Source of the DNA: a virus
Reading direction: 5' to 3' (one strand)
DNA length: 64,000 nucleotides
Virus record (IMG/VR): IMGVR_UViG_3300045988_056969
Coordinates: 46,751-110,750 of that record
Shown: one piece after another, positions 309 through 48,424 of the stretch
Layout of the letters: each line of letters starts with the position of its first letter
Position numbering within the stretch: the stretch's first letter is position 1
The notes under the pieces: generated by a model
Told to the model about the DNA's origin: nothing
Seen by the model: only the letters and a program-made list of their open reading frames with translations
The model's database searches: none
Made by a program: the position numbers and the translations under genes

Positions 309-1589
309 TCATAGTTATAGTAATAAGTACCGTTCCCAAGTTTTTGGATTGTCTAAGGATAAACGTCCATTTGTATTCTATTCGGCTCTAACATAAGGTG
401 TTATTTTAAAATTTATAGGAAATTTGTATCTAAGCAAAGAATAGTGTAATCTCCTATTCTTACTTTTAAAATAGTAGGGTTTATTGTTATACATGAAATG
501 CACTCGAAAATGATTGTCATAATCAATAACCTCTACAATGTGAATATATTTATTATAAAACTTAGATATGTTAACTTCTTTTCCATTCCAGTTAGAGAAT
601 TTCAATCCAGTTAACTCCTCTACCTTTCTCAGCAAGTTCTTAGAGTTGCAAAATTTCATCCATCCAAAATAAGACCTCATTCTTCTATTCAATTCATCTT
701 TATCAATCTTATTCTATTTATATAGATTTATAAGCCTAAACATCCTCATTTTTATAGATTTTCTCAGTAGAACATGAGTATGATAGAATTTATAGCCTAC
801 GAAATTAATACCTCTGCTTTCTACAGGGAATATTTGATAATTAGGCTTCAACTCTAGGTTAAGAACCTGTTTCAAATATAGTTTTATAGATACTAATACA
901 TTTCTCAAATAATTCTTGTCATTACCAAGAATCACAATATCGTCAGCATATCGAAAGTAGTACTTACATTTTAACTCCTCTTTTACCCAGTGGTCAAAAT
1001 ATGTCAGATATAAATTTGCAAAGAATTGTGATAGATAATTTCCAATAGGAACTCCCTTCGCTGAATAAATTATTTCTTTCAACAGTTTTAATAGTTTTTT
1101 ATCCTTTATCTTTCTCTATAACATTTCGTATAAAATGTCGTGAGTTATAGAAGGATAGAATTTTTTTATATCCATTTTCAAGCAATACTTTGTTTCTTCT
1201 GGATGTTTCTATAACACCTTAAACAAATCATACTCTACTTTATGAATACCTCTATTTCGTATAGAGGAATATGTTTGGTCTATAAATATACTAGTCCAAA
1301 TAGGCTCCATAATATTCATTATAGCATGGTGAGTTATTCTATCTGGATAGTATGGAAGTCTAAAGATTAATCTTTCTTTAGGTTCGTATATTATAAAGGT
1401 ACTATATTCAGAGGTTTGATAAATCAAATCCCTTAACTTATCGGATAATTCCTTATTTTCTTTTAATCTATTCTTATCATGCTGCTTGATTCCACATCTA
1501 ATAGACTTATTTCTTCTGGCTTTATCGTCAGCTAGTTCGATGTTATCTTCAGCGTATACTTTCTCGTGCAAATATCCTACACGTTTCAA
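309..1589 (-). CDS. DGR reverse transcriptase; single gene requiring read-through of 4 in-frame TAG codons; real stop TGA at 309-311; start codon uncertain (TTG at 1587-1589)
   Basis: ORF-track fragments 1209-1589, 714-1082 and 378-692 share one frame and are separated only by TAG (plus-strand cta at 1209-1211, 1116-1118, 714-716, 378-380). RT motifs YPDRITHHAIM, FYPSITHDIL, PIGNYLSQFFANLYL (DGR-type I/LGxxxSQ), YADD. Lies next to a TR/VR pair. Confidence 0.8.
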
Positions 1590-1731
1590 TTTTTTATATA
1601 TTTCATCGGAAGCGTTCGAGAATTAACCTACTAACACCCTTCATTCAACACTACGTTATCTTTTGCCTAGAGGCAAGGATATTACTTAGCAAACTAAAAA
1701 AAATAATAAAATGTTTCTAAATATATAATAA

Positions 1732-1827
1732 CTTGACATTGGAATTGGCATTGCTGACGTCATTGTTAGAATTGAAATAGCTGAGACCTGCATTGCTGCC
1801 ATTATTCGCGTTGCTGCCTACTAGCAG
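1732..1827. repeat. DGR template repeat (TR), about 96 bp, non-coding, between RT and target gene
   Basis: Near-identical to 1932-2027 and (as reverse complement) to 29286-29375. Almost all differences fall where TR carries A in the coding sense. Confidence 0.8.
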
Positions 1828-1905
1828 TACTTTTTTGCCAATCAACGGTTTTTAGAAGTAATATCCTACGATTTATCATCTAAATCGATTTTTATATTGT
1901 ATATC

Positions 1906-3723
1906 TTAAGATACTCTATTCAGAGTCCTGAACCCGACATAGGAACCGGCATTGCCGACGCCAGCGCCAGAATAGAAATAGCCGAGACCCGCAAAGCCGC
2001 CATCATTCGCGCCGCCGCCCACCCGCAGCGTGCGAAGCGCTGTGCTGCTTGCGTTGCAGTAATGGTAATCGCAAATATAAGTAGTAGTACTTCCTCCAAC
2101 AGCGGATGGAATTATTTCAGCGGTTTCACCTAAGTCAAATGCCTTAATATAACCATCCGATGCTACTTCGTATCCTGCAACGGTTTTCTCTCCAACTACG
2201 TCTGTAAATTCCGATATGTTAGTAGTTGTATAGACAGTGCTAATCTCATTAGCAGCTGCTCTCACTACAACTACTCCGTCCAGGTTAGTCCAAATGTCTC
2301 CAAACGGATTATCGAATCCTCTCCAGCGAGGTACTTTAAATGTATGAGTTGCTACTGTATTTGTGCCATCTTGAGCTGTACATTCTGGAATAACTAAATC
2401 TTTTACTCCAGTGAAGTTACCAAGTTCATTGCAGTAACCACAAGGTGTAAGTGGATATGTTGCATTATACCCTAACCAACTTGTAGCTGCGTTAGCCCAA
2501 TCTGTAACTCCAGATCCTAAACCTCCTTGATGATATCCATCTGCAATTAACTCTGCATTATATGCAGCCTAAGAATTAAAATTAGCATATTCAATGACAT
2601 AATTCCAGTAGAATATCCATTTGTAATATTCATAGCATAGCAATTCTGAACCAGCATTTGTTGCATATGTTCTCATAGTAGCTCTAGAAATATTAGTTCT
2701 AGGCTTTCCTAAATCACTTCTGAATATATCCTTAGTTTCTAATTCTGTAGTTAGATAATCATCGTAGTTAGCTCTATTTCCTCCACCTCTAAATGCAGTA
2801 GTAGTATTAACTACTGATACAGCTTTTGGAGTTGCGGAGACTGTGGTATCAACTGTACTTCTGTATGCATCTATTAATAGTTCAGGAATTTCTACCCATG
2901 AATCATCAATTTTGACAGTAGAAGTTCTAACCCATCTTTTGTTTCCATCGCTGCCAGATTTTCCATAAAATTTAGGAGTATTAACTCTTACTGTTCCATC
3001 AGTTCCATCTAAGACAGATGGAGTTTCGCCGTCTTCTTTATAAGACCAGTCATCTGGAAACAGATAGTAATTTACTACATCATTGTTTGCTACACAACCT
3101 CTATACGCTGACTGAATAGGAAGAGATTTATGCAACAAAGGATTACCTATTCTAGTAAGTTCCGGAGATGCTACTGTAACATCCCATTCTACTCCATAGG
3201 AATATAAATCCATATTACTATTTAGCTCAGTAACCTACTTATCAAGCTTTTGTTGTGCCTTCTACAATTCTTCCCAAGCCTCATTTAGTGCTGTAAATTG
3301 CTCTTCTAGCTTAGAACTTGAATCTGCCCATTCAGCAGTACCATCTGCTGAGAAAACTAGCATCTATCCAGACGCTCCTCCAGATGGAATATGTTTATTT
3401 CCAGAAGTAGTTGGGTGTACATAATTATTAGCATTATTAGCTATAGTACTTAACTTTTCCTTCTCAGTTTCAGTATAATTGGCTTCAGAAAGTCCCTTTC
3501 CTAACTCCTTATCTACTTTGCCTTCAAGCTCACCCTTAGTAGCTAATTCACTAATATCCTAATGCTCAGTCAAATATCCACTATCATTCTGTAACTAAGA
3601 AGTTTTAGTTGGAATTGCATTAGCTTTGGCATATGTCGTATCTATAACATTTCCAGCACCATCGTAAGTAGCTTTTAAATCGTATGTGGTTTCCCCAACC
3701 TTTATAGATTTGATTGCTGCCAT
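1906..3723 (-). CDS. DGR target protein 1 (tail-fibre/receptor-binding-like, about 605 aa) with C-terminal VR; contains in-frame TAG codons; stop TAA at 1906-1908
   Basis: Frame-0 fragments 1906-2265 and 2569-3213 are joined by TAG (e.g. 2569-2571, 3235-3237, 3262-3264, 3364-3366). ATG at 3721-3723 lies just after an upstream in-frame TAA TAA (3733-3738). N-terminus MAAIKSIKVGETTYDL; Gly/Ala-rich C-terminus covers VR1. Confidence 0.65.
1932..2027. repeat. DGR variable repeat 1 (VR1) in the 3' end of a minus-strand target gene
   Basis: Alignment to TR gives about 25 substitutions, 24 at plus-strand T of TR (coding-sense A to N); one a-to-c change near the end. Confidence 0.8.
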
Positions 3724-3732
3724 ATCATTGTA

Positions 3733-13711: not shown

Positions 13712-15823
13712 AATTAAAAGTCTCCTGGGTCAAAACCATCCACAGCTCCAGCTCTAACAGTAGATTGTTCAGTAAGTTCTTTCTTAACCTAGTCTTCTAG
13801 TGTTATGAGTTCTTCATGAACTTTGTGAAGAGTAGCCATTTCCTTCATTACTTTTTCAGCCTGGAATACTGGCTTGCCGTTATTATCACGCTCATTTAAA
13901 TCTACAATAGTTTCGAAATAATCAATAAACTAGTCTGCAGCTCTTTTAGCTGCTTCTAGTAATTTTATTGACTTGTTTGAATCTTGTAACGCTCTGTATT
14001 TCCTACAAGCTTCTCTAAATATAGGGTCATTAAATTCTGACTCTGTCAATCCAGAATCACTAATAGCTTCGTCATGTCGTTCATGTTCCGAATACTAACT
14101 GTACGGACTTTTCCAGTCTATAGCTAAATAAATGTAAGATAGTTCTCTAGTAGCTCTATCCTTTTCTGCAGATTTATCCCTCTAGATTAAAGCCTTAAAT
14201 TCCTTAACTAGTAATATCTCTGGTTCATTTATTTCTAGCTATTTAGTTAAAGTGTTATAGTTAAATACATTCATAATCATTAATCATTATCATACACATT
14301 AGATAATCTTATTATTTCTTTTTCATTTTGGAACCGCACTTATTGACTTTCATTTTTGAGCCACAAGCGTCTTTCTTAGCATATTGTTTTCTGTCAGGAA
14401 CCCATTTTCCTCCCTGGAAATTACCCTTATGTCCTTTATTGGCCATAGTTTCCTAATCATTGTATTTATTGATTGATATAGAATCTCTTGAGGCTTCGTC
14501 TCTAGCAGATTTCATATCTTTCTTATACTAAGCTCTTCCTGCCTTAAATTTATCAACTTCATTAGCTTTCTTAGTAACTTTAGTTCCTTTTTGTGCTTTC
14601 TGGCAAGCTTTACAGATTCTACCGCCTTGCTTAAAATATACAAGCTCTTCTCCTTCTGGACATACTCCTTTTAGCTTCTTATAATACTCAAGCTTAGCTC
14701 CAAGCCTAGCCATTACTCCTCCTTGCATTTTCTGCATAAATTCCTGATACTTAGCTTTAATGCCGTCTTCACCTAATTGTTCAGCATAAGCTTGTAAATC
14801 CTGTTCAGACTATATCTGAACTCCCTATGACTGCGCATCCTATATTAAATATGCCACAAACGCTTTTTGTAATTCTTGTTGATTATTCATTGTTCCTCCT
14901 TGTTGAAATTTAGTTGTATGTCCCGGAGATAATGTTAATGGTTTAGCTTCTGATTTTCTAGAATTCCATACATCTCCAAGATAATTAAATAATCTCTATA
15001 ACCCCCTATGTATCCCAAAATCTCCTCCTTGTACTGTATTTCCCATAGTATATCTAATGGTAGAAGGTTGTTTAGGCTTACTTGAAGGCTACTCGGCTCT
15101 TGTCTATTCACTAGCTGGCTAACTGCCTCTTGTAATAGTTGGTATTCCTCTACCCCAAGTAGTTCCTTTTGTTGTAGCAATTAGGTCTGGAGCTTCTATA
15201 CTAATCTAAGTATCTGACTAAGGAATCTGAATGGTAGAAGGTTGTTTAGGCTTACTTGAAGGCTGTCCTAAGTCTGTAGTATATACAGAATTTCCCCACA
15301 TAAACTGTTTTAGTCCTCTCTCTCTAGCAGCCCTAAAAGCTGTCTTAAAATCTTTAACACCTCTTAAATCATCCTAAGCTATTTCAGCAGTAGGAAGAGG
15401 TTCTAATCTTGTGGGTAATGAAGGCATTTCTGGAGCATCAAAATATGCCTCTTGTAACTTAGGCATTTTCTATTGTGCGGTTCTTCTAATAATGTCTGGA
15501 TTAGTTGCCCAAGTCTAATGCAACTACCTCAAGGTTCTCTCATCTAAGTCCGCATCTCCGTAAATAATTTTGATATTACGCATCAATTCAGGGTCAAACT
15601 ACACTTTAGCCATTACTTTTCTACTTTAATTAAATCCTTAGTATTAAACACTGCTTCCTACATAAGTCCGGAATCAGTAAACCATCTACATCTTAATCCT
15701 CGTAATCCTTGGTTATCTTTAAATAAAGCTGCTTCTCTTCTTAGAACAAGCATAACTGGAGAATGCATTACTTTACACTACCGTAAAGTAACACAATCCC
15801 CAGGCTTAAAATAAACTTTTTCA
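13712..15823 (-). other. Additional late genes with in-frame TAG (fragments 14528-14737 zinc-ribbon CxxC..CxxC; 14935-15180)
   Basis: Short minus-strand ORF fragments in several frames; boundaries not resolved. Confidence 0.3.
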
Positions 15824-17884: not shown

Positions 17885-18007
17885 TAGTCATAATTCATTT
17901 AATCATTTATCACATTTATCTATATTTATTTGATACTTTTCAAGTATATTAATATTCTTTGTAAGATACAAATCAATAAATAATACATTATATTAAAAAT
18001 GTCTAAT

Positions 18008-18340
18008 ATGACAAAAATGGTAACATTTGGATGTCCAATTTTTAAAAACGGGTCAGGCATTCATATTAAAGAGAAAAACAAAGGTAAATTTACTGCCTCT
18101 GCTAAGGCTGCAGGATAGTCTGTACAGGAACATGCTAAATCTGTACTAAACAATCCTAATGCTACTTCTCTTCAGAAGAAGCGTGCTAACTTTGCTAGAA
18201 ACGCGGCTAAATGGAAACACGAAGATGGAGCTAAGATACATAAACCAAGTGGACATAGATCTATTCTAGATAATGGATGGATTCCTACTACTAGATTAAA
18301 GAAAGGAAATTATGGATTAATTAAAACAAGAAAGCAATGA
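18008..18340 (+). CDS. Small basic protein (110 aa) with one in-frame TAG (18116-18118); missed by the ORF track
   Basis: ATG at 18008 and TGA at 18338; a continuous reading frame if TAG is sense. Confidence 0.45.
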
Positions 18341-18415
18341 GCGCTGTAGTTAAATTAATTAAAGAATTTATACTTAAGATATATCTTTATTTACTATTTA
18401 TATTTAATAAGTAAT

Positions 18416-18607
18416 ATGGACTATAATAGAGCAACTCTTTATGCGGCTACTGGTCGTACTTTATTACTCCCTGGCTGGAAAGGGTATTTTTATTGGGACT
18501 ATACTAAGAATGAATTAAATTTTAGAAATGGAGACTATCATTTAGATAACAAATAGCTCAAGGAGAAAGGAGTTATGGAACGTAATGATTGGTATTATAT
18601 AATATGA
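18416..18607 (+). CDS. Small protein (63 aa) with one in-frame TAG; ATGA overlap with the next gene
   Basis: ATG at 18416 and TGA at 18605-18607 overlapping the ATG at 18604. Confidence 0.4.
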
Positions 18608-18996
18608 TAATTAAAAATAATATTATACCGTTTGGAGGTTATAAAGTAATTAATCTGTTTGGATTAATATTTACTAAGTCGGATTTGACTGATGAGGATA
18701 AGAATCACGAGAATATCCATTCAGTATAGATTTTAGAATGTGCAATAGCGTTTGCAATACTTATATCTATATTATTTGGATTAGAATGGGTATGGTTAGC
18801 TATTCCATCTTTCTATATCTGGTATGGATTAGAGTATTTAATTATACGACTATTAAGACTTAAAGATTCTCAAAATGATTGCTACAGAGATGTAAGCTTT
18901 GAAGAAGAAGCTTATATGAATGAAGACAATTTACAGTATCTAGAAGGATAGAGAAAGATGTTTTCATGGATAAAATATCTAAAAGTTAATGCATAA
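18604..18996 (+). CDS. Small membrane protein (130 aa, hydrophobic core ILECAIAFAILISILFGLEWVWLAIPSFYIWYGL) with 2 in-frame TAG; holin-like by composition only
   Basis: Manual translation; TAA at 18994-18996. Confidence 0.4.
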
Positions 18997-19040
18997 CAAA
19001 ATAGGCGAACTTAGACAATTAAGTCTAGGCTCGCCTATTT

Positions 19041-19253
19041 TTATTTACTATTATACGTACAAGTGATTCTGTTTGGCTCTTCCCACCAAGGTTTATCTGA
19101 AAGTGGAGTTCTGATGCTATTGGGCCAATTTATAATTGGAGTAGTTTCCTCTACTATAGCCTCCATTATTTTAAATAATGTATCCAAGTCTAGCTCTGGA
19201 AGCAGCTCATGAATATTAGTTATTGTTTTCTTATAATTTATCATACCCTTCAA
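19041..19253 (-). CDS. Hypothetical protein
   Basis: ORF track; no TAG needed. Confidence 0.4.
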   Translation of the reverse strand: MKGMINYKKTITNIHELLPELDLDTLFKIMEAIVEETTPIINWPNSIRTPLSDKPWWEEPNRITCTYNSK

Positions 19254-19599
19254 AAGTGTCGTTAATAATTGCTTTCTCTATTGTAGTATCTTTATATAAA
19301 CCATGTTGTAGTATATTTCTTACTTGATGGTCTACTTGATTCCATATATCTAATAATATAGAAGAATCATCTGAAAGACTATATTGTGGATAGCTAGCCC
19401 TTAAACTGCTAAGTACTTTGCCATTAATGTAAATGTCAAATACGAAATTTTTTATATCATCTGTAGTTTCTCCAGAAATTCCTGCAGCTCTTTGTAAAAG
19501 TTTAAGAGCCTTTTCATATACTTCCCTTTCTTCACGCTCAATTCTTGAAGAATTGAACATCATCATATTTGCGGCTACTGACATATTAGTACGATACAC
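19231..19599 (-). CDS. Hypothetical protein
   Basis: ORF track. Confidence 0.45.
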   Translation of the reverse strand: MYRTNMSVAANMMMFNSSRIEREEREVYEKALKLLQRAAGISGETTDDIKNFVFDIYINGKVLSSLRASYPQYSLSDDSSILLDIWNQVDHQVRNILQHGLYKDTTIEKAIINDTFEGYDKL

Positions 19600-19748
19600 T
19601 TAGCTTATTTAAGTTGTCTAGATAATCTAAGAACCATTGTTCGTTTTGTTTTCCTTCTTCTACAATAGTATTAATTAAAGATTCTGTAGCTAATAGTGTT
19701 ATTTCTGCTAGCTCCTCTAATTCCGATTTAGTAAGTTCGTTATATTTT

Positions 19749-20063
19749 TCAATCAAGTTTAACATAATCCATCCAGTCTTTTATATATGATTTACATTCT
19801 TCCAAATCTGGATAGATACTTGTTATAGAGCATCCAGTTTTCGGATTTTTAAAGTGATGCATCTTAGTCTCTTCTTTTTTCTCCTCTTCTGTATTTCTAT
19901 TTAATGTTCTATTCCAATAGTTGTACTTTTCATCTAACATTTCCATATCACATTCCTCTAATATTTTCATATTAGGGTTATTCATTATCTTGTCGTATTT
20001 TCTCTTTAAATTAGAGACTTTGACAACATCATTTCCATTTAATACAACTGCACACTGTTTCAT
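19749..20063 (-). CDS. Hypothetical protein
   Basis: ORF track. Confidence 0.45.
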   Translation of the reverse strand: MKQCAVVLNGNDVVKVSNLKRKYDKIMNNPNMKILEECDMEMLDEKYNYWNRTLNRNTEEEKKEETKMHHFKNPKTGCSITSIYPDLEECKSYIKDWMDYVKLD

Positions 20064-20287
20064 TTCAATACCTTATAAGTACATATCTTGCCTATCTGTT
20101 TTCCTTGAATTGTTATTTGCGGAAGAAAATAGCAGGCTTGATTCTCAAATTCTTGAGGTACAAAGATATAATCAAACTTACTTCCAACTACCTTCTCACA
20201 AACTTTATTCCAATCGTCTCCCTCTTCTATAATAAGAGTTTTAGCTCCTGTTGGAGTTACTACATAATTCTCATTTAATTTTATCAT
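20060..20287 (-). CDS. Hypothetical small protein (MIKLNENYVV...); the track ORF is trimmed to the first ATG so that it no longer overlaps the tRNA
   Basis: Upstream part of track ORF 20060-20362 overlaps the suppressor tRNA and is judged spurious. Confidence 0.4.
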   Translation of the reverse strand: MIKLNENYVVTPTGAKTLIIEEGDDWNKVCEKVVGSKFDYIFVPQEFENQACYFLPQITIQGKQIGKICTYKVLK

Positions 20288-20304
20288 AACTATTAATTTT
20301 GGCG

Positions 20305-20376
20305 TTGCCCTACTAGGATTCGAACCCAGACTAAATGATTTAGAGTCATCTGTGCTGACCATTACACCATAGGGCA
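20305..20376 (-). tRNA. Suppressor tRNA, anticodon CTA (reads UAG); clean cloverleaf; probably Gln-derived
   Basis: Minus-strand TGCCCTA-T-G-GTGT-AATGGTCA-GCAC-A-GATGA-CTCTAAA-TCATT-TAGT-CTGGG-TTCGAAT-CCTAG-TAGGGCA-A. All stems pair. The D-arm is identical to the tRNA-Gln(TTG)-like gene at 34198. Confidence 0.8.
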
Positions 20377-20514
20377 GTAACTTATTTCTCTTTTAGAGAT
20401 TTATTTTCTGCTGCCAATTTCTCTAGTTCTTTTCTTAATTGTTCATTTTCGTGAAATAAAGCCTGCATAGTAGCGTTGATATTAGCTAATAGTATTCTCA
20501 TTTGAGCAACCTAT

Positions 20515-20916
20515 TCATACATAAGCTTTCAGTTGTTCAATTCTCTTTTTAGCTATATCTGACAATGCCATTTTGAATTTAGCAATACCAGCTCTTACTG
20601 TTTCTAACTTGCCGCTTTCTAAGCATTCTTGTATTTTATGAACTTCAAGCTCTCCTAGATATTCGCATACATCTATAAATAAATCATCATCTAGAGATTC
20701 TAAATATTTCTGGAATTGGTCTACCTCTTCATTAGCTAGACAGCTTTCTTCCTTCTATCTTTCATAAGATATTAATAAGAACAAAGAATCGTCGGTAGAT
20801 TCGGACTTAATAGTTAGTCCATTACCAGACATATAATATTCTTGATTCGTATTAATTGCCCCAATTAGCTATTTAAACTAGTCCTAATTTAACAATGTTT
20901 CTAAGTCTGTAATCAT
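20515..20916 (-). CDS. Hypothetical protein (133 aa) with 4 in-frame TAG; stop TGA 20515-20517
   Basis: Manual translation MITDLETLLN-Q-D-Q-FK-Q-LIG...; continuous only with TAG as sense. Confidence 0.45.
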
Positions 20917-21039
20917 AATTGTTTTCTTTTTAGTTATATACAATAATAACCTCCGAAAAGTTAAACGCAAAGTTAAAAAATTCTAATTCAAATATTATAC
21001 ATATTTTATATATTAAGGGGAAAGCCGGTACAGGTACTT

Positions 21040-21180
21040 TATATAAATAGCCCCCTGGGGTTATTATAAATTCCGACTTTTATATTTGGAGGGCAATTAC
21101 CTAGATTCCAAAAATTCATAGAGTGAGTGTAGTGGCGGTCCACCACTACGTTAGACCCCCCTGGGGTTCGTAGTGGAAAA
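21040..21180 (+). promoter_or_regulatory. Leader of the first early operon with alternative hairpins (GTAGTGG-cggtc-CCACTAC, then a second GTAGTGG) and a duplicated CCCCCTGGGGTT motif; Bacteroides-type -7 like TAtaTTTG at 21078-21085
   Basis: Direct reading of the sequence; attenuator-like mutually exclusive pairing is possible. Confidence 0.3.
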
Positions 21181-21240
21181 TAAATATCCATATATATAAT
21201 CCCTAACCATATAAGAGTAATAATTATAAATTTTATAACA

Positions 21241-21687
21241 ATGGCAACAGAAAGAAACAGCCGAGAAAAGGGTGAAGCACTCGCAGCGGCACAGGGTACA
21301 CAAATCAAGGATTTTGCAGCAGCAGGAAAAACTAATTTACCACCTACGGAACTTGCAAACGTGGAAGTAGGGGAAGAGTTCACAATTCCCAATGACTACA
21401 AAATCTATGAACGTGAATTTAACGGTAACAAATATCAGTTTGTTGTTACCGAAGAAGGAAAATTCTTTTACGTTTCATGGCTCACACGTGGAGCAAAGCC
21501 CAAAGACGGGGGAGATTTTGTAAGACCTAAAGGTACAGTAATCGAAAAATTTTACAAAAATCCTAATGCCTCTTACGATGAGGCATTTAAGGGCATCACT
21601 GGGAAACCTATGATAGTAAAAGAATTTACCAAAGTTGAAGGTGAAAACTTTACCACAAAGGTGGCAACCATCGACTTTGTAAAATAG
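21241..21687 (+). CDS. Early hypothetical protein, paralog of 22121-22579; ends with a genuine TAG stop
   Basis: ORF track; shared motif LTRGA.P.DG.DFVRP.GTV; TAG 21685-21687 followed by a terminator hairpin. Confidence 0.6.
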   Translation: MATERNSREKGEALAAAQGTQIKDFAAAGKTNLPPTELANVEVGEEFTIPNDYKIYEREFNGNKYQFVVTEEGKFFYVSWLTRGAKPKDGGDFVRPKGTVIEKFYKNPNASYDEAFKGITGKPMIVKEFTKVEGENFTTKVATIDFVK

Positions 21688-21696
21688 TTTAACATT

Positions 21697-21719
21697 GGGT
21701 AGGGGTGACAGACCTACCC
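21697..21719 (+). terminator. Stem-loop GGGTAGG-ggtgacagac-CCTACCC followed by a T-rich tract
   Basis: Perfect 7-bp inverted repeat right after the TAG stop. Confidence 0.5.
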
Positions 21720-21735
21720 TATAAATTTAAACATT

Positions 21736-22002
21736 ATGACAAAAGAATACGTTGAAGAAAGATATAACCTATTATTTGAACTTTATGGGGTTCAATCTCG
21801 TGGTTGGTCAATGTTGCATGAGCAATTTAATAGATACGTGTTTTGCCCAGATAACCGCAAATCATTAATAGCGGAATATTTAGTTTGGGAAGACTTTGTA
21901 GAAGACGCAAAGAAATTCAATGTTCCTTATTATATGGGAATTGATAACTTTCTGAAAGAATACAAAAACGCTGTTTATTCATGCTTAACTAACTTACAAT
22001 AA
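21736..22002 (+). CDS. Hypothetical protein
   Basis: ORF track. Confidence 0.5.
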   Translation: MTKEYVEERYNLLFELYGVQSRGWSMLHEQFNRYVFCPDNRKSLIAEYLVWEDFVEDAKKFNVPYYMGIDNFLKEYKNAVYSCLTNLQ

Positions 22003-23343: not shown

Positions 23344-23413
23344 TCCCTACTAGTATAATGGATTGCGTCTCCCTTTAAAGGAGAAGATTCTGGTTCAAGT
23401 CCAGAGTAGGGAT
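23344..23413 (+). tRNA. tRNA with anticodon TTA (UUA; would read UAA, and UAG by wobble); ochre-suppressor-like
   Basis: TCCCTAC/GTAGGGA acceptor; anticodon arm TCTCC-CTTTAAA-GGAGA; T-arm TCTGG-TTCAAGT-CCAGA. Confidence 0.6.
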
Positions 23414-23448
23414 CTTCATAGTTATATTATTTGTGATTATTACTTTTC

Positions 23449-24569: not shown

Positions 24570-25529
24570 ATGAAGACAATACTTACTCACATAGGAAAGA
24601 TTTATGTTGATACAGAACATAAACTTGAATTTCTAACCGTAGGAGACTATGGAAAAGAGAACAATATCAAAGCTAATTTCCTAGGATTAACTAAGGAGAT
24701 TAACGGAGTAGCTAATACTGAAGTTGACCTTAGTAAGAAGTGGGTTGCAACTATTTCAACTCAGAAAGGCTGTCCTATGCATTGTAAATTCTGTGATGTT
24801 CCCAAGTTTGGATTCTATGGAAATGCTTCTATAGAAGATATGGATAGACAAATCCGAACTATTATAGAAGGCGAAAGTGTCAGAGAAACAGACAGGTTTA
24901 ATGTACACTTTGCTAGAATGGGAGAACCAACATGGAATGATAATGTATTAGCATTTGGACTTGCTCTCAGAGGTGTGGTTAAGTCTGCAGGGTTAATAGC
25001 TAAAACTGTTCATCCAGTAGTTTCCACGATGCTTCCGAAAGCAAATAATAAGCTTGGAAACTTCTTACAGGTTTGGTGTAGCATAAAAAATGAGTTCTAC
25101 AATGGAGAAGCAGGCTTGCAGTTTTCAATCAATTCTACAGACGATGAACAGAGAAATGAGCTGTTTGACTCTAAGAGTTTGTCACTAGCACAAATTTCCC
25201 GGTTGGCTGACGAGTTACCAATGCCAGTAGGCAGAAAGTATACTCTAAATTTTCCAGTAACCTCACAAACTATTCTCGATGCGAAGGAATTGTCAAAGCT
25301 ATTTGATAGGGAGAAATTTATTGTTAAAATCACTCCTATACATGAAACAGCTTCTGCTATAGAGAATGGTTTCCAGGTAACTGGATACTCTGATTATGAC
25401 GTTTATCGTCGCTTTGAACAACCTTTATTGAAAGAAGGTTGGGATGTTATAGTGTTTGTTCCATCTAAGGAGGAAGATTCTGACCGAATTACTTGTGGGA
25501 ACGCACTAATCTCTGAAGAGAAGATTTAA
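24570..25529 (+). CDS. Radical-SAM RNA methyltransferase of the RlmN/Cfr family
   Basis: STQKGCPMHCKFCDV (RlmN GCALECKFC), ARMGEPTWN (MGMGEPLLN), INSTDDEQR (LHAPNDEIR), C-terminal ITCGNAL (AACGQL). Confidence 0.7.
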   Translation: MKTILTHIGKIYVDTEHKLEFLTVGDYGKENNIKANFLGLTKEINGVANTEVDLSKKWVATISTQKGCPMHCKFCDVPKFGFYGNASIEDMDRQIRTIIEGESVRETDRFNVHFARMGEPTWNDNVLAFGLALRGVVKSAGLIAKTVHPVVSTMLPKANNKLGNFLQVWCSIKNEFYNGEAGLQFSINSTDDEQRNELFDSKSLSLAQISRLADELPMPVGRKYTLNFPVTSQTILDAKELSKLFDREKFIVKITPIHETASAIENGFQVTGYSDYDVYRRFEQPLLKEGWDVIVFVPSKEEDSDRITCGNALISEEKI

Positions 25530-28359: not shown

Positions 28360-28827
28360 ATGAATAAAATGAATAAAATGAATAAAACAAAAGCTTGCCT
28401 TGAAATAACTTTAGAACAGGCACGTAAATGGTATGAGAGTGGCAATGAAGACTTGAAAAAATTAGCTCTTACCGCTTTTAGTGAAGAAGTTCTAGTCCCT
28501 TCTCTTGGAGAAATATTAGAATCTGAAAAGGATTGGGATGTGCTATTTTTACCTTTAGGGATATCAGAGCAAACTAAGTCTCTAATTTGTCTACAAATAG
28601 TAGCTAATTACTTAAACAATGGTTGGAATAAAACAGAGAGTAACAGCGGTTATTTCCTTGGAAGGGGTTCTTCTCTATCTGGAAAGACGGAAACTGATAT
28701 AAAAGGAGTGTACGTCGTTATGCATCAAAACGTAAAATATCCAGGTGTTGTTTATTTTAGAACTGTAGCTGATGTACAGAAAGCGGTGAAGATACTAGGA
28801 AAGAAGTTGCTGCCGCTATTCGAATAA
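28360..28827 (+). CDS. Hypothetical protein (N-terminal MNK x3 repeat)
   Basis: ORF track. Confidence 0.45.
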   Translation: MNKMNKMNKTKACLEITLEQARKWYESGNEDLKKLALTAFSEEVLVPSLGEILESEKDWDVLFLPLGISEQTKSLICLQIVANYLNNGWNKTESNSGYFLGRGSSLSGKTETDIKGVYVVMHQNVKYPGVVYFRTVADVQKAVKILGKKLLPLFE

Positions 28828-28938: not shown

Positions 28939-29499
28939 ATGAAAAGAACTATTGAAATTGAATGTCCAGATGGTTATAAACCCATCTATAATGCCGAAAC
29001 TGGCAATGTTGAAATCGTTCCAGAAAACATTATGGGACGAATAAAGACCTATGAGGACGCTAGAGACTATCTTGGGTACTTATTTAATAGTGAAATCCAT
29101 TACACTGAATCTGTAAAGGCTCTAGCTAAGTTGCAAACAATTCTGGATGCGCTGAACGAAAAGCACAAGTTCAATCTGCTGACTGGTACTATATGGTATC
29201 CCTGGGTTCGCTTCTTTAGAATGAAATCAGTTCCGAAGGATGCAGAAGTCATTGGTCACTTCCGTTATCAGGGCGAGAAATTCGCGTTGGTGGGCGGCGA
29301 CGCGGCTATTGGCGGCACTGCGGGTCTCGGCTGTTTCTGTTCTGCCTTTGGCGTCGGCTTTGCCTATTCCAATGTTGGGATGCTTGCGTGCAAATCTGAA
29401 GAGATTGCCAAATACGTATCAACCCAGTTTGGAAAGCTAGTGTTCGATGCTTGTTTTGCAAGACATTTCAAGGGTGAAGAATTTGAATGGCTTGACTAA
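28939..29499 (+). CDS. DGR target protein 2 (186 aa) with VR2 at codons about 116-146 (FALVGGDAAIGGTAGLGCFCSAFGVGFAYSNVGM)
   Basis: 29286-29375 matches the reverse complement of TR with about 25 differences, all at TR adenines in the coding sense. Confidence 0.75.
   Translation: MKRTIEIECPDGYKPIYNAETGNVEIVPENIMGRIKTYEDARDYLGYLFNSEIHYTESVKALAKLQTILDALNEKHKFNLLTGTIWYPWVRFFRMKSVPKDAEVIGHFRYQGEKFALVGGDAAIGGTAGLGCFCSAFGVGFAYSNVGMLACKSEEIAKYVSTQFGKLVFDACFARHFKGEEFEWLD
29286..29375. repeat. DGR variable repeat 2 (VR2), about 27 kb from TR
   Basis: See the alignment against the reverse complement of TR 1732-1825. Confidence 0.75.
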
Positions 29500-29978
29500 T
29501 GAAAAAGTTCCTTGTAATTATGCTTGCTATGCTCTGGATGAGCGTAGCAGCTTTTTCTCAGATAACTATATCACAAGAAGACTATGATAAGTTGCCTAGT
29601 GATACTAGAACTCAAATTGAGAAGATAACAACAGAGAAAGCTATAAAGGGTGAAATCAAGGAAGTTTCTGAGTATGCTAACCTTGGTAAGGAAATAGGCG
29701 TGGCTGTTAATGAAACTCTTAAAGCAGTTGAAGATTCCGCCATCAGAATAGCAGACTCTAATTTGGGACAAACAGCAATAACTATCGTAGTATGGAAATT
29801 ACTTTACAAAGAGATAGCAGGTGTTGTAATAGGTATCATATTATTAGGAATATCCTTGTTTATGCTACTAACTGGTAGAGGAAAGCTATCTAAGAATGAC
29901 GAAGATGCTGGAGGTTGGATAAGTGTAGTAGGAGGAGCTGTATTCTTTATATCTTCAATGATTTGTATATTTGGCTGA
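29499..29978 (+). CDS. Membrane protein with a signal peptide; translationally coupled (ATGA) to DGR target 2
   Basis: ORF track; N-terminal signal MKKFLVIMLAMLWMSVAAFSQ and a C-terminal TM helix. Confidence 0.5.
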   Translation: MKKFLVIMLAMLWMSVAAFSQITISQEDYDKLPSDTRTQIEKITTEKAIKGEIKEVSEYANLGKEIGVAVNETLKAVEDSAIRIADSNLGQTAITIVVWKLLYKEIAGVVIGIILLGISLFMLLTGRGKLSKNDEDAGGWISVVGGAVFFISSMICIFG

Positions 29979-30072
29979 GGAGCAATCCAGGCTATAGGCT
30001 GGTGTATTCTAGCTATATTCTGTGTAATATTGCTTCTTGTATGATTTTTGGCTAGTCATAAGACTAGCTTTT

Positions 30073-30162
30073 GGAAGGGTGGCAGAGTCAGGTTTATTGC
30101 AACGCTCTTGAAAAGCGTCGGGCGTGATGAGCGTCCCCAGGGTTCGAATCCCTGTCCTTCCG
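30073..30162 (+). tRNA. tRNA-Ser (anticodon TGA), type II
   Basis: GGAAGGG/TCCTTCC; anticodon arm ACGCT-CTTGAAA-AGCGT; long variable arm; discriminator G. Confidence 0.75.
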
Positions 30163-30167
30163 CAAAT

Positions 30168-30241
30168 ACGTCCGTACTCAAGTGGTTTAAGAGGATAGTC
30201 TCCAAAACTATTATTCCTAGGTTCGAATCCTAGCGGGCGTG
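30168..30241 (+). tRNA. tRNA-Trp (anticodon CCA)
   Basis: ACGTCCG/CGGGCGT; anticodon arm ATAGT-CTCCAAA-ACTAT; T-arm CTAGG-TTCGAAT-CCTAG; discriminator G. Confidence 0.7.
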
Positions 30242-30264
30242 CTATTTAATTAATAAATTAGATT

Positions 30265-30492
30265 ATGAAAAGATTAGTAATTGTTTTATTGGGGCTTATG
30301 TTGCTATATAGCTGTGGTCCAGTACCAGAGTCAAAAGCGACTATGAGCGCTCCAGACGGGATTATTCCGTTTGATAACGCAGTTCACTTCAAGTACAAGA
30401 ATCATCAGTACATTAAGTTTGTTGAAGGATTTGGACAGTATAAGATTTCCGGAGTAGTTCATGACCCAGATTGTAAATATTGTAAGAGATGA
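30265..30492 (+). CDS. Small lipoprotein (signal plus Cys: LLYSCG)
   Basis: ORF track; lipobox. Confidence 0.5.
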   Translation: MKRLVIVLLGLMLLYSCGPVPESKATMSAPDGIIPFDNAVHFKYKNHQYIKFVEGFGQYKISGVVHDPDCKYCKR

Positions 30493-31007
30493 GTGAAGTG
30501 TATTATCTTTTGGCAGCCATTTCATATGGCATTTTTCTAGTTCAATTCATTTTATCTTGGTTTGGTGGAGACACTGACTTAGATGTTGATTTAGATGGAG
30601 AACTAGATATGAACGTGAGTGATATTGTCTCATTTAAGGGATTAATCCATTTTATAATGGGAGCTAGTGGATGGCTTTGTGTTAAGCAATCCGTATCTCA
30701 TTCTGTAGAATGGTATGATTATCTAATCGCATTAGTATGCGGTATTCTTTTCGTGGTTATACTTTACTACTTATATAAACTCTGTTTAAAACTCCAGCAT
30801 CAAGTTATTCCAGAAGAGGGTGAAGCCTTGATTGGAAGGGTTGGAATTATCACAGTTCCTTGTGAAAACCATTTCTTCATTACTATTGAAGTAAATGGAG
30901 GTTCTGAGGAAATTGTAGCCTATCCAGAAGTCCCAAAAATGGGATATATGGTTGGTACTCGTGTGGTAATTTCTAAATTTGAGAATGGAAAGTATTATTT
31001 TAACTAA
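30489..31007 (+). CDS. NfeD-like membrane protein (TM helices plus a C-terminal OB-fold beta-barrel)
   Basis: Hydrophobic N-terminus; C-terminus GRVGIITVP...GYMVGTRVVISKFENGKYYF; located directly upstream of the flotillin gene, as in yqiJ-yqiK / yuaF-floT operons. Confidence 0.6.
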   Translation: MSEVYYLLAAISYGIFLVQFILSWFGGDTDLDVDLDGELDMNVSDIVSFKGLIHFIMGASGWLCVKQSVSHSVEWYDYLIALVCGILFVVILYYLYKLCLKLQHQVIPEEGEALIGRVGIITVPCENHFFITIEVNGGSEEIVAYPEVPKMGYMVGTRVVISKFENGKYYFN

Positions 31008-31024
31008 AAAAGAATTTTTAAAAA

Positions 31025-32983
31025 ATGACAACAGAAACTCTTATTGTAGCAGGTGTTATTGTATTGCTAGTAGTTTTAACCTTTATTGGACTTTTGTCAC
31101 GGTATCGTAAGTGTGCTAGTGATGAAATCTTGGTTGTGTTTGGTAAGGCTGGCAAGAAAAAGGTAGTTAACGAAAAGACTGGAAAGTCGGAGGAAGTTAT
31201 TCTGCCGTCCAAAATCATTCATGGTGGAGGTACATTCGTAATGCCAGTAATTCAAGACTGGGCTAAAATGTCCTTGAAACCTATCCAAATTCAAGTAAAT
31301 GTTACTGGTGTTTCCAGTCAAATGATTAAGGTAACTATTCCTGTAACATTGACCACTGGTATTGGAACTACTCAAACATTAATGCAAAATGCTGCAAGTA
31401 GATTCTTAACAGCTAAAACTTCTGAAATCTCAGACCAAATCAAGGATATTCTCATTGGTGAAGTGAGAAGCTTGATGGCTACAATGACGATTGAGGAAAT
31501 TAACGCTGATAGAATCAAGTTTATCGGCAAAGCTAAGGAGAATATTGAGACCGAGTTAAATAAGGTAGGTTTCAGTATTATCAACATTAACAATGCTGAT
31601 ATTTCGGATGATGCAAACTATATCAAGAATCTAGGTCAGAAAGCTGCAACTAAAGCTCTTGCTCAGGCACAAGCAGACATTGCAGAAGAGAAAAAGAAAG
31701 GAGATATTCAGATTGCAGAAACCAACAAGCAACGTGAAATTGCTGTAGCAGACGCTGAGAAAGAGCGTGAAACTACTGTTGCTCAGACTAGACAAGAGCA
31801 AGAGGTTCGTGTGGCAGAGATTAACCAGGAGAAGGAAATCAAACTTGCAGAAGCTGAGAAGAATAAGCAATCAGGTATTGCTAATCAGAAAGCTGAACAA
31901 GCTGCCAATATTGCTAAAGCTAATACTGCAGCGGAATCAGAGAAAGCTAAAGCAGAAGCTGAGAAAATTTCAGCTATAGCTAAAGCTCAAGCAGAAGCCG
32001 ATTCTAACAGAGCAGAGTCTGAATCACTGGCTGAGGCTAATGTAGCTAAGGCTAAAGCAGAAGCTGACTCTAAGAAAGCAGAAGCAGAAGCAGAGAAACA
32101 AACTCGTATTGCTCAGGCTAAACAAAAACAGGAAGCTGAGACGCAAAAGGCAATTAACGAACAGGAAGCTGCAGTTGCTAAGTATGAGTCAGACAAGCGT
32201 GTAAAGGCAGCTGAAGCTGATAAGATTGCAGGAGTGGCAGAACAAAATGCCACAATTGAAGTCTCTAAAGCTAAGGGAGAGGCCGAGAAAGCTAAGGCTG
32301 AAGCTGAAAAGGTAGCAGGAACTTCTAAGGTAGAAGCTCAAATGACTATCGAGAAAACTAAGCAAGAAAAGCAACTGGAAGTAAACGAAGCAGCTGCATT
32401 AGCTATGGAAGCTAAGCTTCATGCTGAGACGATTGTTCCTGCTCAAAAGGAGAAGGAACGTATCACGATTGAAGCAGAAGCTGTTAAGCAGAAAGCTGTA
32501 CTTGAAGCAGAAGCTAAGGCTGCTGAAATTCTGAAAGAAGCAGAAGCTAAAGCGAATGCTACAAAGTTGCAGCTAGAAGCCGAAGCTGAAGGTACAAGAA
32601 AGAAACTGCTTGCTGAAGCTGAGGGTAAGAGAGCATCTTTGATGGCTGAGGCTGATAAAGTCCAGGCTATTGAAATGGCTCCTGCTCTGGCAGTCCAGAA
32701 GATGATTGAATCTGGCTTGACTCCTGAAATGGTGGTTCAGTACAAGACAGTTGACCAGTTGACAGGTATTGCAGAAGCATCTGCTCAGATGTTTGAACAC
32801 GTTCACCTTGGACAGGTTACTGTTTATGGTAATGAGAATACCGCTGGTAATTTCATGGCTAAGACTGCTGAGAACTTGAATCCTGCTCTTGACTTATTAC
32901 GTTCTATTCCTTTCGCTGACACAGTAAAGGAAATGTTCGGAAAGAAGCAAGTAGAAGCTACTGAGTTTGAAGAAGTGAAGTAA
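31025..32983 (+). CDS. Flotillin-like SPFH/band-7 protein (652 aa) with a long Ala/Glu/Lys-rich coiled coil
   Basis: N-terminal TM segment plus SPFH core; EA/AEAEK repeats typical of FloT/YqiK. Confidence 0.8.
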   Translation: MTTETLIVAGVIVLLVVLTFIGLLSRYRKCASDEILVVFGKAGKKKVVNEKTGKSEEVILPSKIIHGGGTFVMPVIQDWAKMSLKPIQIQVNVTGVSSQMIKVTIPVTLTTGIGTTQTLMQNAASRFLTAKTSEISDQIKDILIGEVRSLMATMTIEEINADRIKFIGKAKENIETELNKVGFSIININNADISDDANYIKNLGQKAATKALAQAQADIAEEKKKGDIQIAETNKQREIAVADAEKERETTVAQTRQEQEVRVAEINQEKEIKLAEAEKNKQSGIANQKAEQAANIAKANTAAESEKAKAEAEKISAIAKAQAEADSNRAESESLAEANVAKAKAEADSKKAEAEAEKQTRIAQAKQKQEAETQKAINEQEAAVAKYESDKRVKAAEADKIAGVAEQNATIEVSKAKGEAEKAKAEAEKVAGTSKVEAQMTIEKTKQEKQLEVNEAAALAMEAKLHAETIVPAQKEKERITIEAEAVKQKAVLEAEAKAAEILKEAEAKANATKLQLEAEAEGTRKKLLAEAEGKRASLMAEADKVQAIEMAPALAVQKMIESGLTPEMVVQYKTVDQLTGIAEASAQMFEHVHLGQVTVYGNENTAGNFMAKTAENLNPALDLLRSIPFADTVKEMFGKKQVEATEFEEVK

Positions 32984-32988
32984 TCACA

Positions 32989-33038
32989 GCGAAGGGGCTT
33001 TACAAAGAATTAGTAAAGTATAACAAAAGCCCCTTCGC
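32989..33038 (+). terminator. Large stem-loop GCGAAGGGGCTTT...AAAGCCCCTTCGC after the flotillin gene
   Basis: Perfect 13-bp inverted repeat right after the TAA stop. Confidence 0.4.
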
Positions 33039-34197: not shown

Positions 34198-34270
34198 TGG
34201 GCTATGGTGTAATGGTTAGCACTACAGATTTTGATTCTGTCAGTCTAGGTTCGAGTCCCTCCTACCCTAC
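34198..34270 (+). tRNA. tRNA-Gln-like (anticodon TTG); D-arm identical to the CTA suppressor; T-arm and acceptor irregular, so possibly degenerate
   Basis: TGGGCTATGGTGTAATGGTTAGCAC...ACAGA-TTTTGAT-TCTGT; acceptor TGGGCTA/TACCCTA with one C-C mismatch; T-stem pairs only 2-3 bp. Confidence 0.45.
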
Positions 34271-47970: not shown

Positions 47971-48211
47971 AGTATAAGAAAAAAGTAGCTTGGTTAAAAG
48001 CAAAGCAAGCATGGTGGGATAAACAAGGAAAAGACTTTCAGGCTGCAACTACCAGACCTGGGTCTATTAAAACTCGATAAATCATGATTGCGTTTATAAT
48101 TGTGTGCATAATGTTTGCCGCGTATATTTATTATGACCCGTATGTAGATATTACAGAGGATAATGTACTACTATGGTATAATAAAAGCGGCAATAGAGAA
48201 TATATTATTCT

Positions 48212-48424
48212 ATGGTCGAGAAAAACTTAATTAAGGCATTTGTTGCCGTTCTATTAATCGTTGTAATTTACAACATCAGCTTATGGTTATTATCCGAATC
48301 ATTGTATGCTGCAAATATCTTGGGGTTGTTACTATTACTAGTGGCAATCCCAAGTTTAGTTTATAGGATATTCAAATATATTAAGAAACATTACTTAAAT
48401 AAGGAAAATGAAGACAATTATTAA
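48212..48424 (+). CDS. Small membrane protein (2 TM)
   Basis: ORF track; hydrophobic. Confidence 0.4.
   Translation: MVEKNLIKAFVAVLLIVVIYNISLWLLSESLYAANILGLLLLLVAIPSLVYRIFKYIKKHYLNKENEDNY

What the first reader, a model, noticed from the sequence alone, without database searches (positions are those of the whole stretch)
28939..29499. Second DGR target gene 27 kb from the template repeat, on the opposite strand and inside the tRNA island
Positions 29286-29375 match the reverse complement of TR with about 25 mismatches that are again all A-to-N in this gene's coding sense. They fall in a Gly/Ala-rich segment of a 186-aa protein coupled to a membrane protein (29499-29978). So one TR/RT serves two targets of very different size and context: a virion fibre and a small early/middle-region protein.
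Basis: seen in the sequence. Interest (0 to 1): 0.75.

Follow-up and report, generated by a model that had tools for sequence, protein, structure and literature searches.

The report
Second, remote DGR target in phage
A gut phage's mutagenic retroelement rewrites not only its tail-fibre tip but also, 27 kb away on the other strand, a 30-residue patch in a small protein of unknown function whose predicted fold is unlike any known diversified protein.

Summary
Window 29288-29375 (+) matches the template repeat (TR, 1736-1823, minus strand). All 23 mismatches fall on TR adenines (P ~5e-16), and nothing else in the window apart from the fibre VR1 matches TR. In 26 related ~186-kb genomes, TR-to-VR2 mismatches are 547 at adenines and 16 elsewhere. 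VR2 follows non-A changes in its own TR. Genes identical over their other 472 nt differ at 11-17 of the 89 VR2 positions. VR1 and VR2 are equally near saturation and statistically independent of each other. VR2 is therefore an actively diversified second target of one Avd-less DGR in what looks like a Zeta crAss-like phage with TAG recoding. Diverged lineages aim their own TRs at the same small-protein family, and one genome targets two paralogues plus the fibre. The architecture has precedent: non-adjacent phage targets (Wu 2018) and the Quimbyvirus structural plus distal non-structural pair (Benler 2021). What is new is the target. It is a 186-aa protein in the non-recoded plus-strand block, with no Pfam, PDB, PADLOC or NCBIfam hit. 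Its confident model (pLDDT 93) matches no C-type-lectin or other solved fold, and it shares only the 35 VR columns with the fibre domain. Its function is unknown. The membrane-protein coupling is local, and no BPP-1-like IMH or hairpin was found.

The parts
29288..29375 (+). VR2: variable repeat in the small protein gene (codons 117-146). 29287 is a non-A mismatch at the 5' edge.
   Evidence: 23/23 mismatches to TR fall on TR adenines; hypervariable in the population only at A-templated columns.
28939..29499 (+). Target gene 2: 186-aa protein of unknown function, with no in-frame TAG, no signal peptide, and VR internal (40 residues follow it).
   Evidence: ORF; only phrog_11581 'unknown function'; model pLDDT 93; no PDB fold match; family of 222 representatives at 50% identity.
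1736..1824 (-). TR: template repeat, A-rich (29 A in 89 nt), non-coding, in the 316-nt spacer between the fibre stop (1906) and the RT start (1589).
   Evidence: Invariant in the core across related genomes.
1937..2025 (-). VR1: variable repeat at the extreme C-terminus of the fibre-like protein.
   Evidence: 21 A-site mismatches plus 1 T>G; varies at the same columns as VR2.
1906..3723 (-). Target gene 1: 605-aa fibre-like protein with 6 in-frame TAG codons (read as sense).
   Evidence: Homologous fibre C-termini carry the VR in related lineages.
315..1589 (-). DGR reverse transcriptase, interrupted by in-frame TAGs (4 between TAA/TGA stops; the last one at 378-380 could be the true end if TAG still terminates there).
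   Evidence: translation; IGNYLSQ and YADD motifs. RVT_1 E=8.6e-20; 307 relatives in IMG/VR.
20304..20376 (-). Suppressor tRNA (anticodon CTA), needed to translate the RT and fibre through TAG. It resembles the phage tRNA-Gln.
   Evidence: Rfam tRNA, 66 bits. (I3).
28360..28827 (+). Tandem partial paralogue (155 aa) that shares only the N-terminal module of the target family and has no VR.
   Evidence: hmmsearch E=2e-12, profile positions 3-93.
29499..29978 (+). Downstream 159-aa membrane protein whose start overlaps the target's stop (TAATG). The adjacency is not conserved in other lineages.

Best explanation
VR2 is a second, actively used target of the single diversity-generating retroelement encoded at the left end of the window. 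Shown: one TR and one RT per genome. There are two VRs (three in one relative), all differing from TR only at adenines. Both VRs read TR in the same frame, with adenines at codon positions 1-2 of AAY codons, so no stop codon can arise (about 2e15 possible protein variants). VR2 is hypervariable in the population only at those sites, tracks non-A changes in its own TR, is statistically independent of VR1, and has the same base spectrum and the same degree of saturation as VR1. Inferred from the established DGR mechanism (Bordetella phage BPP-1): TR is transcribed, the RT copies it into cDNA while misincorporating opposite adenines, and the cDNA replaces either VR. The 3' limit is set just after the last AAT codon, where every VR has a fixed GTCGG and TR has GTC(A/G)A. 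The 5' limit is set by homology and differs slightly between VR1 and VR2. Because the RT carries in-frame TAGs, it can be made in full only once the CTA suppressor tRNA is active, so diversification probably happens late in infection, on replicating progeny genomes. Function (inferred, about 55%): the 186-aa protein is a non-virion binding protein made before the late, recoded genes. Its diversified patch adapts to a polymorphic host partner, in counter-defence, host take-over or an envelope-related role. Selection would act at the next infection, just as it does for the fibre.
For: Adenine-specific match, unique in the window. 26 genomes: 547 A-site versus 16 non-A mismatches for VR2, and 494 versus 22 for VR1. 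TR substitutions C>T x3 (genomes 065173, 061465) and T>C (059915) are mirrored in both VRs. Entropy exceeds 3 bits only at AAY-templated residues. Column-by-column variability is identical in VR1 and VR2 while TR is invariant. 0/472 flank differences against 11-17/89 VR differences, r=0.02. VR1/VR2 independence p=0.66 and matching base spectra. Equal saturation, 14.6 versus 14.4 of 22 sites. At most 3 TR-like repeats per contig in IMG/VR. Diverged lineages hit the same protein family with their own TRs, E of 1e-58 to 1e-61, and one genome has three targets. RT has an RVT_1 domain and the GxxxSQ motif. TAG density is 2.6% of codons in late genes and 0/186 in the VR2 gene (P~0.009), and the plus-strand block also holds helicase, DnaB-like and Toprim (primase-type) domain genes.
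Against: No Avd-like accessory gene was found. No BPP-1-type GC-rich IMH and no significant downstream hairpin at either VR. Target recognition is therefore unexplained, and the fixed GGG could simply reflect selection for glycine. All variation evidence is between genomes or samples; within-sample turnover was not demonstrated (inconclusive). Expression timing and non-virion status are inferred from gene position and codon usage only. No functional annotation exists for the protein or for most of its neighbours.
Confidence: 0.93

Rival explanations
1. VR2 is a dead relic: a former target or an ancient duplicate of the VR/TR segment that is no longer diversified.
For: No Avd, no recognisable IMH or hairpin at VR2. 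VR2 is internal to its gene rather than C-terminal.
Against: 32 of 33 VR2 sequences are distinct. Genes identical elsewhere differ at 11-17 VR2 sites. Non-A positions are conserved while A sites are near saturation, exactly as in VR1. VR2 tracks its own TR's non-A substitutions.
Confidence: 0.02
2. VR2 varies through homologous recombination or gene conversion, either with VR1 or between co-infecting phages, rather than by retrohoming from TR.
For: VR1 and VR2 share about 80% identity over about 90 nt (I2), which is enough for recombination in principle.
Against: VR1 and VR2 of the same genome agree at hypervariable sites no more often than those of different genomes (0.331 versus 0.338, p=0.66). 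Variation is restricted to TR-adenine columns. VR divergence is uncorrelated with flank divergence.
Confidence: 0.03
3. Functional rival: the 186-aa protein is a virion-associated accessory adhesin (for example, docking on a fibre or on the capsid through its N-terminal module), so both targets serve host recognition.
For: It shares the TR-encoded binding patch with the fibre tip. Previously known phage DGR targets are mostly structural (Roux 2021). Small stand-alone adhesins exist in other phages (own knowledge, T-even gp38). Neighbouring genes are envelope-related.
Against: The gene lies 8 kb into the TAG-free plus-strand block, among tRNAs and upstream of the replication genes, and has 0 TAG where about 4.8 would be expected at late-gene density. 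There is no fibre-like or anchoring domain. The closest precedent, Quimbyvirus ORF84, is also read as non-structural.
Confidence: 0.28
4. Structural rival: the VR-bearing module is a very divergent or circularly permuted C-type lectin fold, not a new scaffold.
Confidence: 0.4

Closest known systems
Quimbyvirus ('Quimbyviridae') DGR, Benler et al. 2021 (PMC8008677)
   Same: A gut phage in which one RT/TR serves two targets: one next to the cassette in the structural module, the other distal, on the opposite strand and apparently non-structural. Adenine-specific variation was shown by comparing near-identical genomes.
   Different: Both Quimbyvirus targets have recognisable C-type lectin domains, and its distal target sits in a defence/counter-defence island. 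Here the distal target has no recognisable domain or fold, sits in a tRNA island beside envelope-type genes, and belongs to a ~186-kb TAG-recoded crAss-like genome. Its RT is interrupted by TAG codons rather than by frameshifts.
[quoted passage not shown]
   Same: Genome size, tRNA block, CTA suppressor, amber-interrupted RT with GxxxSQ, no Avd, and the TFP-VR-TR-RT order (one search compared).
   Different: In the passages read, that paper describes only cassette-proximal fibre targets (plus three TR-VR pairs in Lera and ct1yV3). The remote small-protein target is not mentioned there.
Non-adjacent targets of phage-associated DGRs, Wu et al. 2018 (PMC5758913)
   Same: One adjacent target and one non-adjacent target within about 50 kb of the RT. 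The 5' mutagenesis boundaries can differ between targets, and internal VRs place coding constraints on the IMH.
   Different: The VR classes there are CLec1-3, Ig1-2 or 'unknown VRs'. The present target family has not been placed in any of them.
Tentaclins, Baykov et al. 2023 (PMC10743442)
   Same: Second target genes of gut-phage DGRs, sharing a TR with a tail protein.
   Different: [quoted passage not shown] The 186-aa protein has neither.
Bordetella phage BPP-1 DGR (Mtd/Avd/TR/Brt)
   Same: Adenine-specific TR-to-VR information transfer, AAY codon design, and a fibre-tip target.
   Different: BPP-1 has a single adjacent target, needs Avd, and has a GC-rich IMH with a downstream hairpin. None of these was found here.

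Membership tests
Diversity-generating retroelement (DGR) | Reverse transcriptase of the DGR type (RVT_1 domain; motif 4 [LIV]GxxxSQ; YxDD) | tested here: met
   RVT_1 E=8.6e-20. IGNYLSQ and YADD are present in the TAG-read-through translation.
Diversity-generating retroelement (DGR) | TR/VR repeats that differ (almost) only at TR adenines | tested here: met
   VR2 23/23 and VR1 21/22 mismatches at A. 547:16 and 494:22 across 26 genomes.
Diversity-generating retroelement (DGR) | Population hypervariability confined to adenine-templated positions, with TR invariant | tested here: met
Diversity-generating retroelement (DGR) | TR adenines placed at codon positions 1-2 (AAY design), so that no stop codons arise | tested here: met
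   26 of 29 at positions 1-2 and 3 at synonymous third positions, in the same frame for both VRs.
Diversity-generating retroelement (DGR) | Accessory protein (Avd or HRDC) in the cassette | tested here: not met
   There is no ORF in the 316-nt fibre-RT spacer. The 117-aa ORF downstream of the RT has no Pfam match. Published Zeta crAss cassettes also mostly lack Avd. Avd is common but not universal.
Diversity-generating retroelement (DGR) | IMH at the 3' end of VR (GC-rich) with a downstream inverted repeat or hairpin, and a non-identical IMH* in TR | tested here: inconclusive
   The only VR-specific element is a fixed GTCGG(G) where TR has GTC(A/G)A(G). Downstream DNA folds are not better than shuffles (z -1.0 and -0.2).
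Diversity-generating retroelement (DGR) | VR displayed on a C-type lectin (or Ig-like) fold | tested here: not met
Quimbyvirus-type two-target phage DGR architecture | One cassette-adjacent structural target plus one distal opposite-strand target outside the structural module, served by one TR | tested here: met
   Precedent.
Tentaclins | [quoted passage not shown] | tested here: not met
   186 aa, no Ig or C-lec Pfam hit in 98 family members, and no such fold match.
Zeta crAss-like phages ('Echekviridae') | Placement by TerL/MCP/portal phylogeny within Crassvirales | not tested
   Only circumstantial features match (about 186-kb relatives, tRNA block, CTA suppressor, amber recoding, Avd-less cassette). 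BFVD structural neighbours of the target are 'CrAss-like virus sp.' proteins.

The most novel reading that the evidence does not exclude
The 186-aa family is a new, non-C-type-lectin scaffold for DGR hypervariation. It would be made from the non-recoded (pre-late) gene block and would act inside the infected cell as a diversified binder of polymorphic host factors, in effect a phage 'antibody library' for counter-defence or take-over. It has been kept as a DGR target across Zeta crAss-like lineages and is sometimes duplicated.
Probability: 0.25. Interest if true: 0.8.

Novelty: new variant of a known kind. Interest (0 to 1): 0.52.

Why it matters
DGR biology has largely equated phage targets with receptor-binding tail proteins built on the C-type lectin fold. 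Here a very abundant group of gut phages keeps a second target under the same TR, across diverged lineages. That target is a small protein outside the structural module, and its confidently predicted fold is not recognisably lectin-like. If it is non-virion, then DGR-driven adaptation in these phages extends to an intracellular or envelope step of infection. If the fold is truly new, it widens the set of scaffolds known to tolerate massive variation, which is useful for engineered binder libraries. In practical terms, cassette-window DGR finders and standard-code gene callers would miss both the TAG-interrupted RT and the target 27 kb away.

Tried and rejected
(1) Pfam, PHROGs, NCBIfam, PADLOC and PDB sequence searches with the protein, its family profile and its neighbours gave only phrog_11581 'unknown function'.

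(2) The first structure prediction, with close homologues only, was poor (pLDDT 54) and was discarded. The second, with a diverse alignment, was used.

(3) The AFDB50 fold library was unavailable, so cellular structural relatives could not be sought.

(4) Hairpin/IMH search: DNA folds downstream of VR1, VR2 and TR were no better than shuffles. A small TTCAG-GACT-CTGAA stem follows VR1, but nothing comparable follows VR2.

(5) Within-sample diversity: four variants on very short contigs all came from different samples, so this test was inconclusive.

(6) Host or integration: a cluster member is labelled Gemmiger formicilis, but the genome-collection scan finds the element only on phage-sized contigs binned under conflicting names. 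No host call is made.

(7) GenBank phage search of the region found only tRNA-level matches.

(8) Conserved neighbourhood: the membrane-protein adjacency does not hold in other lineages, so a functional pairing was not pursued.

(9) Longer family members (284-319 aa) were checked for informative domain fusions, and none was found.

Full report
OBSERVATION. The minus strand at the left end of the window carries a DGR cassette. It consists of a 605-aa fibre-like gene (3723-1906) ending in VR1 (about 2025-1937), a 316-nt spacer containing an A-rich, non-coding TR (1824-1736), and a reverse transcriptase gene (1589-315). The repeat finder independently reported inverted matches between 29272-29379 and both TR (71%) and VR1 (80%). 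In a gapless register, TR 1736-1823 and VR2 29288-29375 differ at 23 positions, all of them TR adenines (13 A>G, 3 A>C, 7 A>T), and 6 adenines are retained. One C>T lies at the 5' edge, at 29287. The probability that all 23 mismatches fall on the 29 adenines of 88 positions is 5e-16. Using only the 60 non-A positions of TR, a scan of both strands finds nothing with 20 or fewer mismatches except TR, VR1 and VR2. VR2 lies in ORF 28939-29499 (186 aa, residues 117-146). It is flanked by tRNA-His and tRNA-Ser/Trp within a run of 19 plus-strand tRNAs. Its TAA stop overlaps the ATG of a 159-aa protein that has a signal-peptide-like N-terminus and two hydrophobic segments.

IS VR2 ACTIVE? The protein has 830 homologues at E<=1e-3. 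The best 120 are 84-94% identical, yet each is its own 90%-identity cluster, and one cluster alone holds 1,393 distinct sequences. Per-column entropy over those 120 exceeds 3 bits (12-15 residue types) only at residues 121, 123, 124, 127, 134, 136, 137, 141, 143 and 145. These are exactly the ten AAY codons of TR. The TAT- and GAC-templated residues are intermediate, and the four AGC-templated residues are almost always Gly.

Thirty-eight related loci were fetched from IMG/VR contigs, mostly about 186 kb long, together with the RT/TR/VR1 cassettes of the same contigs. For 26 genomes, each TR was compared with its own VRs. TR-to-VR2 mismatches are 547 at A and 16 at non-A. TR-to-VR1 mismatches are 494 and 22. 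Most of the VR2 non-A cases lie in three genomes with shifted or odd 3' ends.

Where TR itself carries non-A substitutions, both VRs carry the same bases. This holds for three C>T changes in genomes 065173 and 061465 and for one T>C in 059915. It is the concerted pattern expected if information flows from TR to each VR. Column by column, VR1 and VR2 vary at the same positions while the TR core is invariant. Gene pairs with 0 differences in the other 472 nt of the gene differ at 11-17 of the 89 VR2 positions. 32 of 33 VR2 sequences are distinct, and VR divergence does not correlate with flank divergence (r=0.02).

VR1 and VR2 of one genome agree at hypervariable sites no more often than VRs of different genomes (0.331 versus 0.338; permutation p=0.66). 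Their base spectra are nearly identical. They are equally close to saturation (14.6 and 14.4 of 22 sites, against about 15.7 expected at saturation), and A is retained at 0.35 and 0.34. This excludes the relic and the VR1-to-VR2 gene-conversion rivals.

A degenerate TR-core pattern finds at most three copies per contig in IMG/VR: an adjacent pair plus one remote copy. This lineage therefore has two targets and no more.

CONSERVATION OF THE PAIRING. Lineages whose RT is about 74% identical have diverged TRs. Degenerate patterns built from those TRs again find a remote, opposite-strand VR. It lies in a member of the same small-protein family (family HMM E of 1e-58 to 1e-61), across three subfamilies that are only about 45-64% identical to the window protein. 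In contig 3300045988_106556 one TR serves three VRs: the fibre and two small paralogues. A-site mismatches number 16, 20 and 16, and non-A differences occur only at or beyond the 3' edge, plus one T>G. The DGR/small-protein association is therefore old and maintained.

GENOME CONTEXT. Minus-strand genes from 315 to 15625 carry 4-28 in-frame TAGs each (RT 4, fibre 6; density 2.6% of codons). Plus-strand genes from 24.5 to 64 kb carry essentially none, and the VR2 gene has 0 of 186 (P~0.009 at late-gene density). A bona fide CTA-anticodon tRNA resembling the phage tRNA-Gln lies at 20304-20376. The plus-strand block also encodes an AAA ATPase, a helicase, a DnaB-like helicase and a Toprim (primase-type) domain protein. 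GC skew changes sign where the gene strand switches, at about 18-22 kb. These features, and the Avd-less fibre-VR-TR-RT cassette with a GxxxSQ RT, match published Zeta crAss-like phages. Marker-gene phylogeny was not done. The host is unresolved, because MAG labels conflict and the contigs are phage-sized.

THE TARGET PROTEIN. It has no Pfam, NCBIfam, PADLOC or PDB sequence match, only phrog_11581 'unknown function'. An exhaustive search finds 222 representatives at 50% identity, nearly all 170-220 aa. They share a conserved scaffold: WYPW...LVGG.A..GS.AGLG.F.S..GVG.A.A.VGFL.C.S.EIA.H.SKYFGKLIFEA. With a 98-sequence alignment, AlphaFold2 gives pLDDT 93 and pTM 0.86. The model has an N-terminal hairpin and two helices, then three strands. 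The VR begins in the last strand (113-126) and continues through a loop into a short helix (144-149). Two further helices and a terminal strand follow.

Roux et al. 2021 state that annotated VR regions are systematically C-Lec, and they expect unknown VR domains to be new C-Lec variants. I cannot exclude a permuted or very divergent lectin fold (about 40%).

The upstream gene 28360-28827 shares only the family's N-terminal module (E=2e-12). The downstream membrane protein is adjacent in close relatives, lies about 1.5 kb upstream in one subfamily, and is absent in L037. The coupling is therefore a local feature.

MECHANISM. Shown: the repeat architecture, adenine specificity, the AAY codon design that avoids stops (26 of 29 A at codon positions 1-2; about 2.4e15 variants), population hypervariability, TR tracking, and independence and equivalence of the two VRs. 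Inferred from the BPP-1 paradigm: TR RNA is reverse-transcribed with misincorporation opposite A, and the cDNA replaces either VR. The 3' limit lies immediately after the last AAT codon, where all VRs in all lineages have GTCGG and TR has GTC(A/G)A. This could be a minimal IMH-like discriminator, or simply selection for glycine. No GC-rich IMH, no significant hairpin and no Avd were found. The 5' limits differ slightly (VR1 from TR position 1827, VR2 from 1823), as Wu et al. describe for multi-target DGRs.

Two further points are speculative. First, the RT needs amber suppression, so diversification is probably confined to the late phase. Second, both VRs are co-oriented with their gene blocks on either side of the skew switch. 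If that switch is an origin, the antisense cDNA would be complementary to the lagging-strand template at both sites.

COMPARISON AND NOVELTY. Non-adjacent targets within about 50 kb are documented for phage-associated DGRs. Two-target gut-phage DGRs include the tentaclin phages. The closest case is Quimbyvirus, with one structural target and one distal, opposite-strand, apparently non-structural target. The architecture is therefore known.

Three things differ here. The target family is uncharacterised, not recognisably C-Lec, has an internal VR, is conserved as a target across lineages, and is sometimes duplicated. The setting is a TAG-recoded crAss-like genome, with the RT in the recoded block and the target in the non-recoded block. 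And this remote target is absent from the passages I read in the Zeta crAss-like DGR description.

VERDICT. The finding is real and correctly interpreted. It is a new variant of a known kind, of moderate interest. Most of its value lies in the unexplained target protein.

Noticed in passing
window 23344-23414 (+): A genuine-looking tRNA with anticodon TTA, which would read UAA (ARAGORN; Rfam tRNA 57 bits). Yet TAA behaves as an ordinary stop: reading with only TAA/TGA as stops yields long, intact late genes. It may be an ochre suppressor of unknown role.
   Followed up: partly
window 315-15625 (-) versus 24500-64000 (+); tRNA 20304-20376 (-): TAG is a sense codon in the minus-strand late block (4-28 per gene) and is virtually absent from plus-strand genes. 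The CTA suppressor tRNA resembles the phage tRNA-Gln(TTG) at 34199-34270, which suggests TAG is read as Gln.
   Followed up: partly
window 29499-33000 and 46954-49235 (+): A cluster of envelope-type genes. It comprises a signal-peptide/2-TM protein, a 75-aa lipoprotein-like ORF (LLYSC), a 172-aa multi-pass membrane protein that by position could be an NfeD-type partner of the next gene (no family match), and a 652-aa SPFH/flotillin (FloT-like) protein with a long Ala/Glu/Lys repeat. Further along are an OmpA-like beta-barrel protein and a second SPFH protein. This is an unusual amount of membrane-organising machinery for a phage.
   Followed up: partly
window 28360-28827 (+): A 155-aa tandem partial paralogue of the DGR target. 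It shares the N-terminal module (motif ARKWYESGNEDLKKLALTAF, common in the wider family) but has a different C-terminal half without a VR.
   Followed up: partly
L193, L195, L196 (contig IMGVR_UViG_3300045988_106556): A related genome in which one TR serves three targets: the fibre and two paralogous small proteins of the same family.
   Followed up: yes
L072 / L011 (contig 3300045988_056908) and L042 / L009 (059870): The TRs of these genomes have lost 4-6 adenines (23-25 A instead of 29) through A>G/T changes, as if TR itself had been partly 'mutagenised' or is decaying. The VRs there show a few non-A mismatches at those columns.
   Followed up: no
window 18000-22000: GC skew changes sign and the cumulative skew reaches its minimum where the two divergent gene blocks meet. 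This could be a replication origin, or simply a coding-strand bias.
   Followed up: no
window 24570-25529 (+): A 319-aa protein with a weak radical-SAM match (E=1e-4, below the Pfam cut-off), located in the tRNA island and conserved in relatives.
   Followed up: no
P0271 / L213-L216: Copies of this phage are binned into MAGs labelled Gemmiger formicilis, Bacteroides sp. and uncultured Clostridium. The contigs are phage-sized (153-186 kb), so these labels are probably binning artefacts and the host is unknown.
   Followed up: partly
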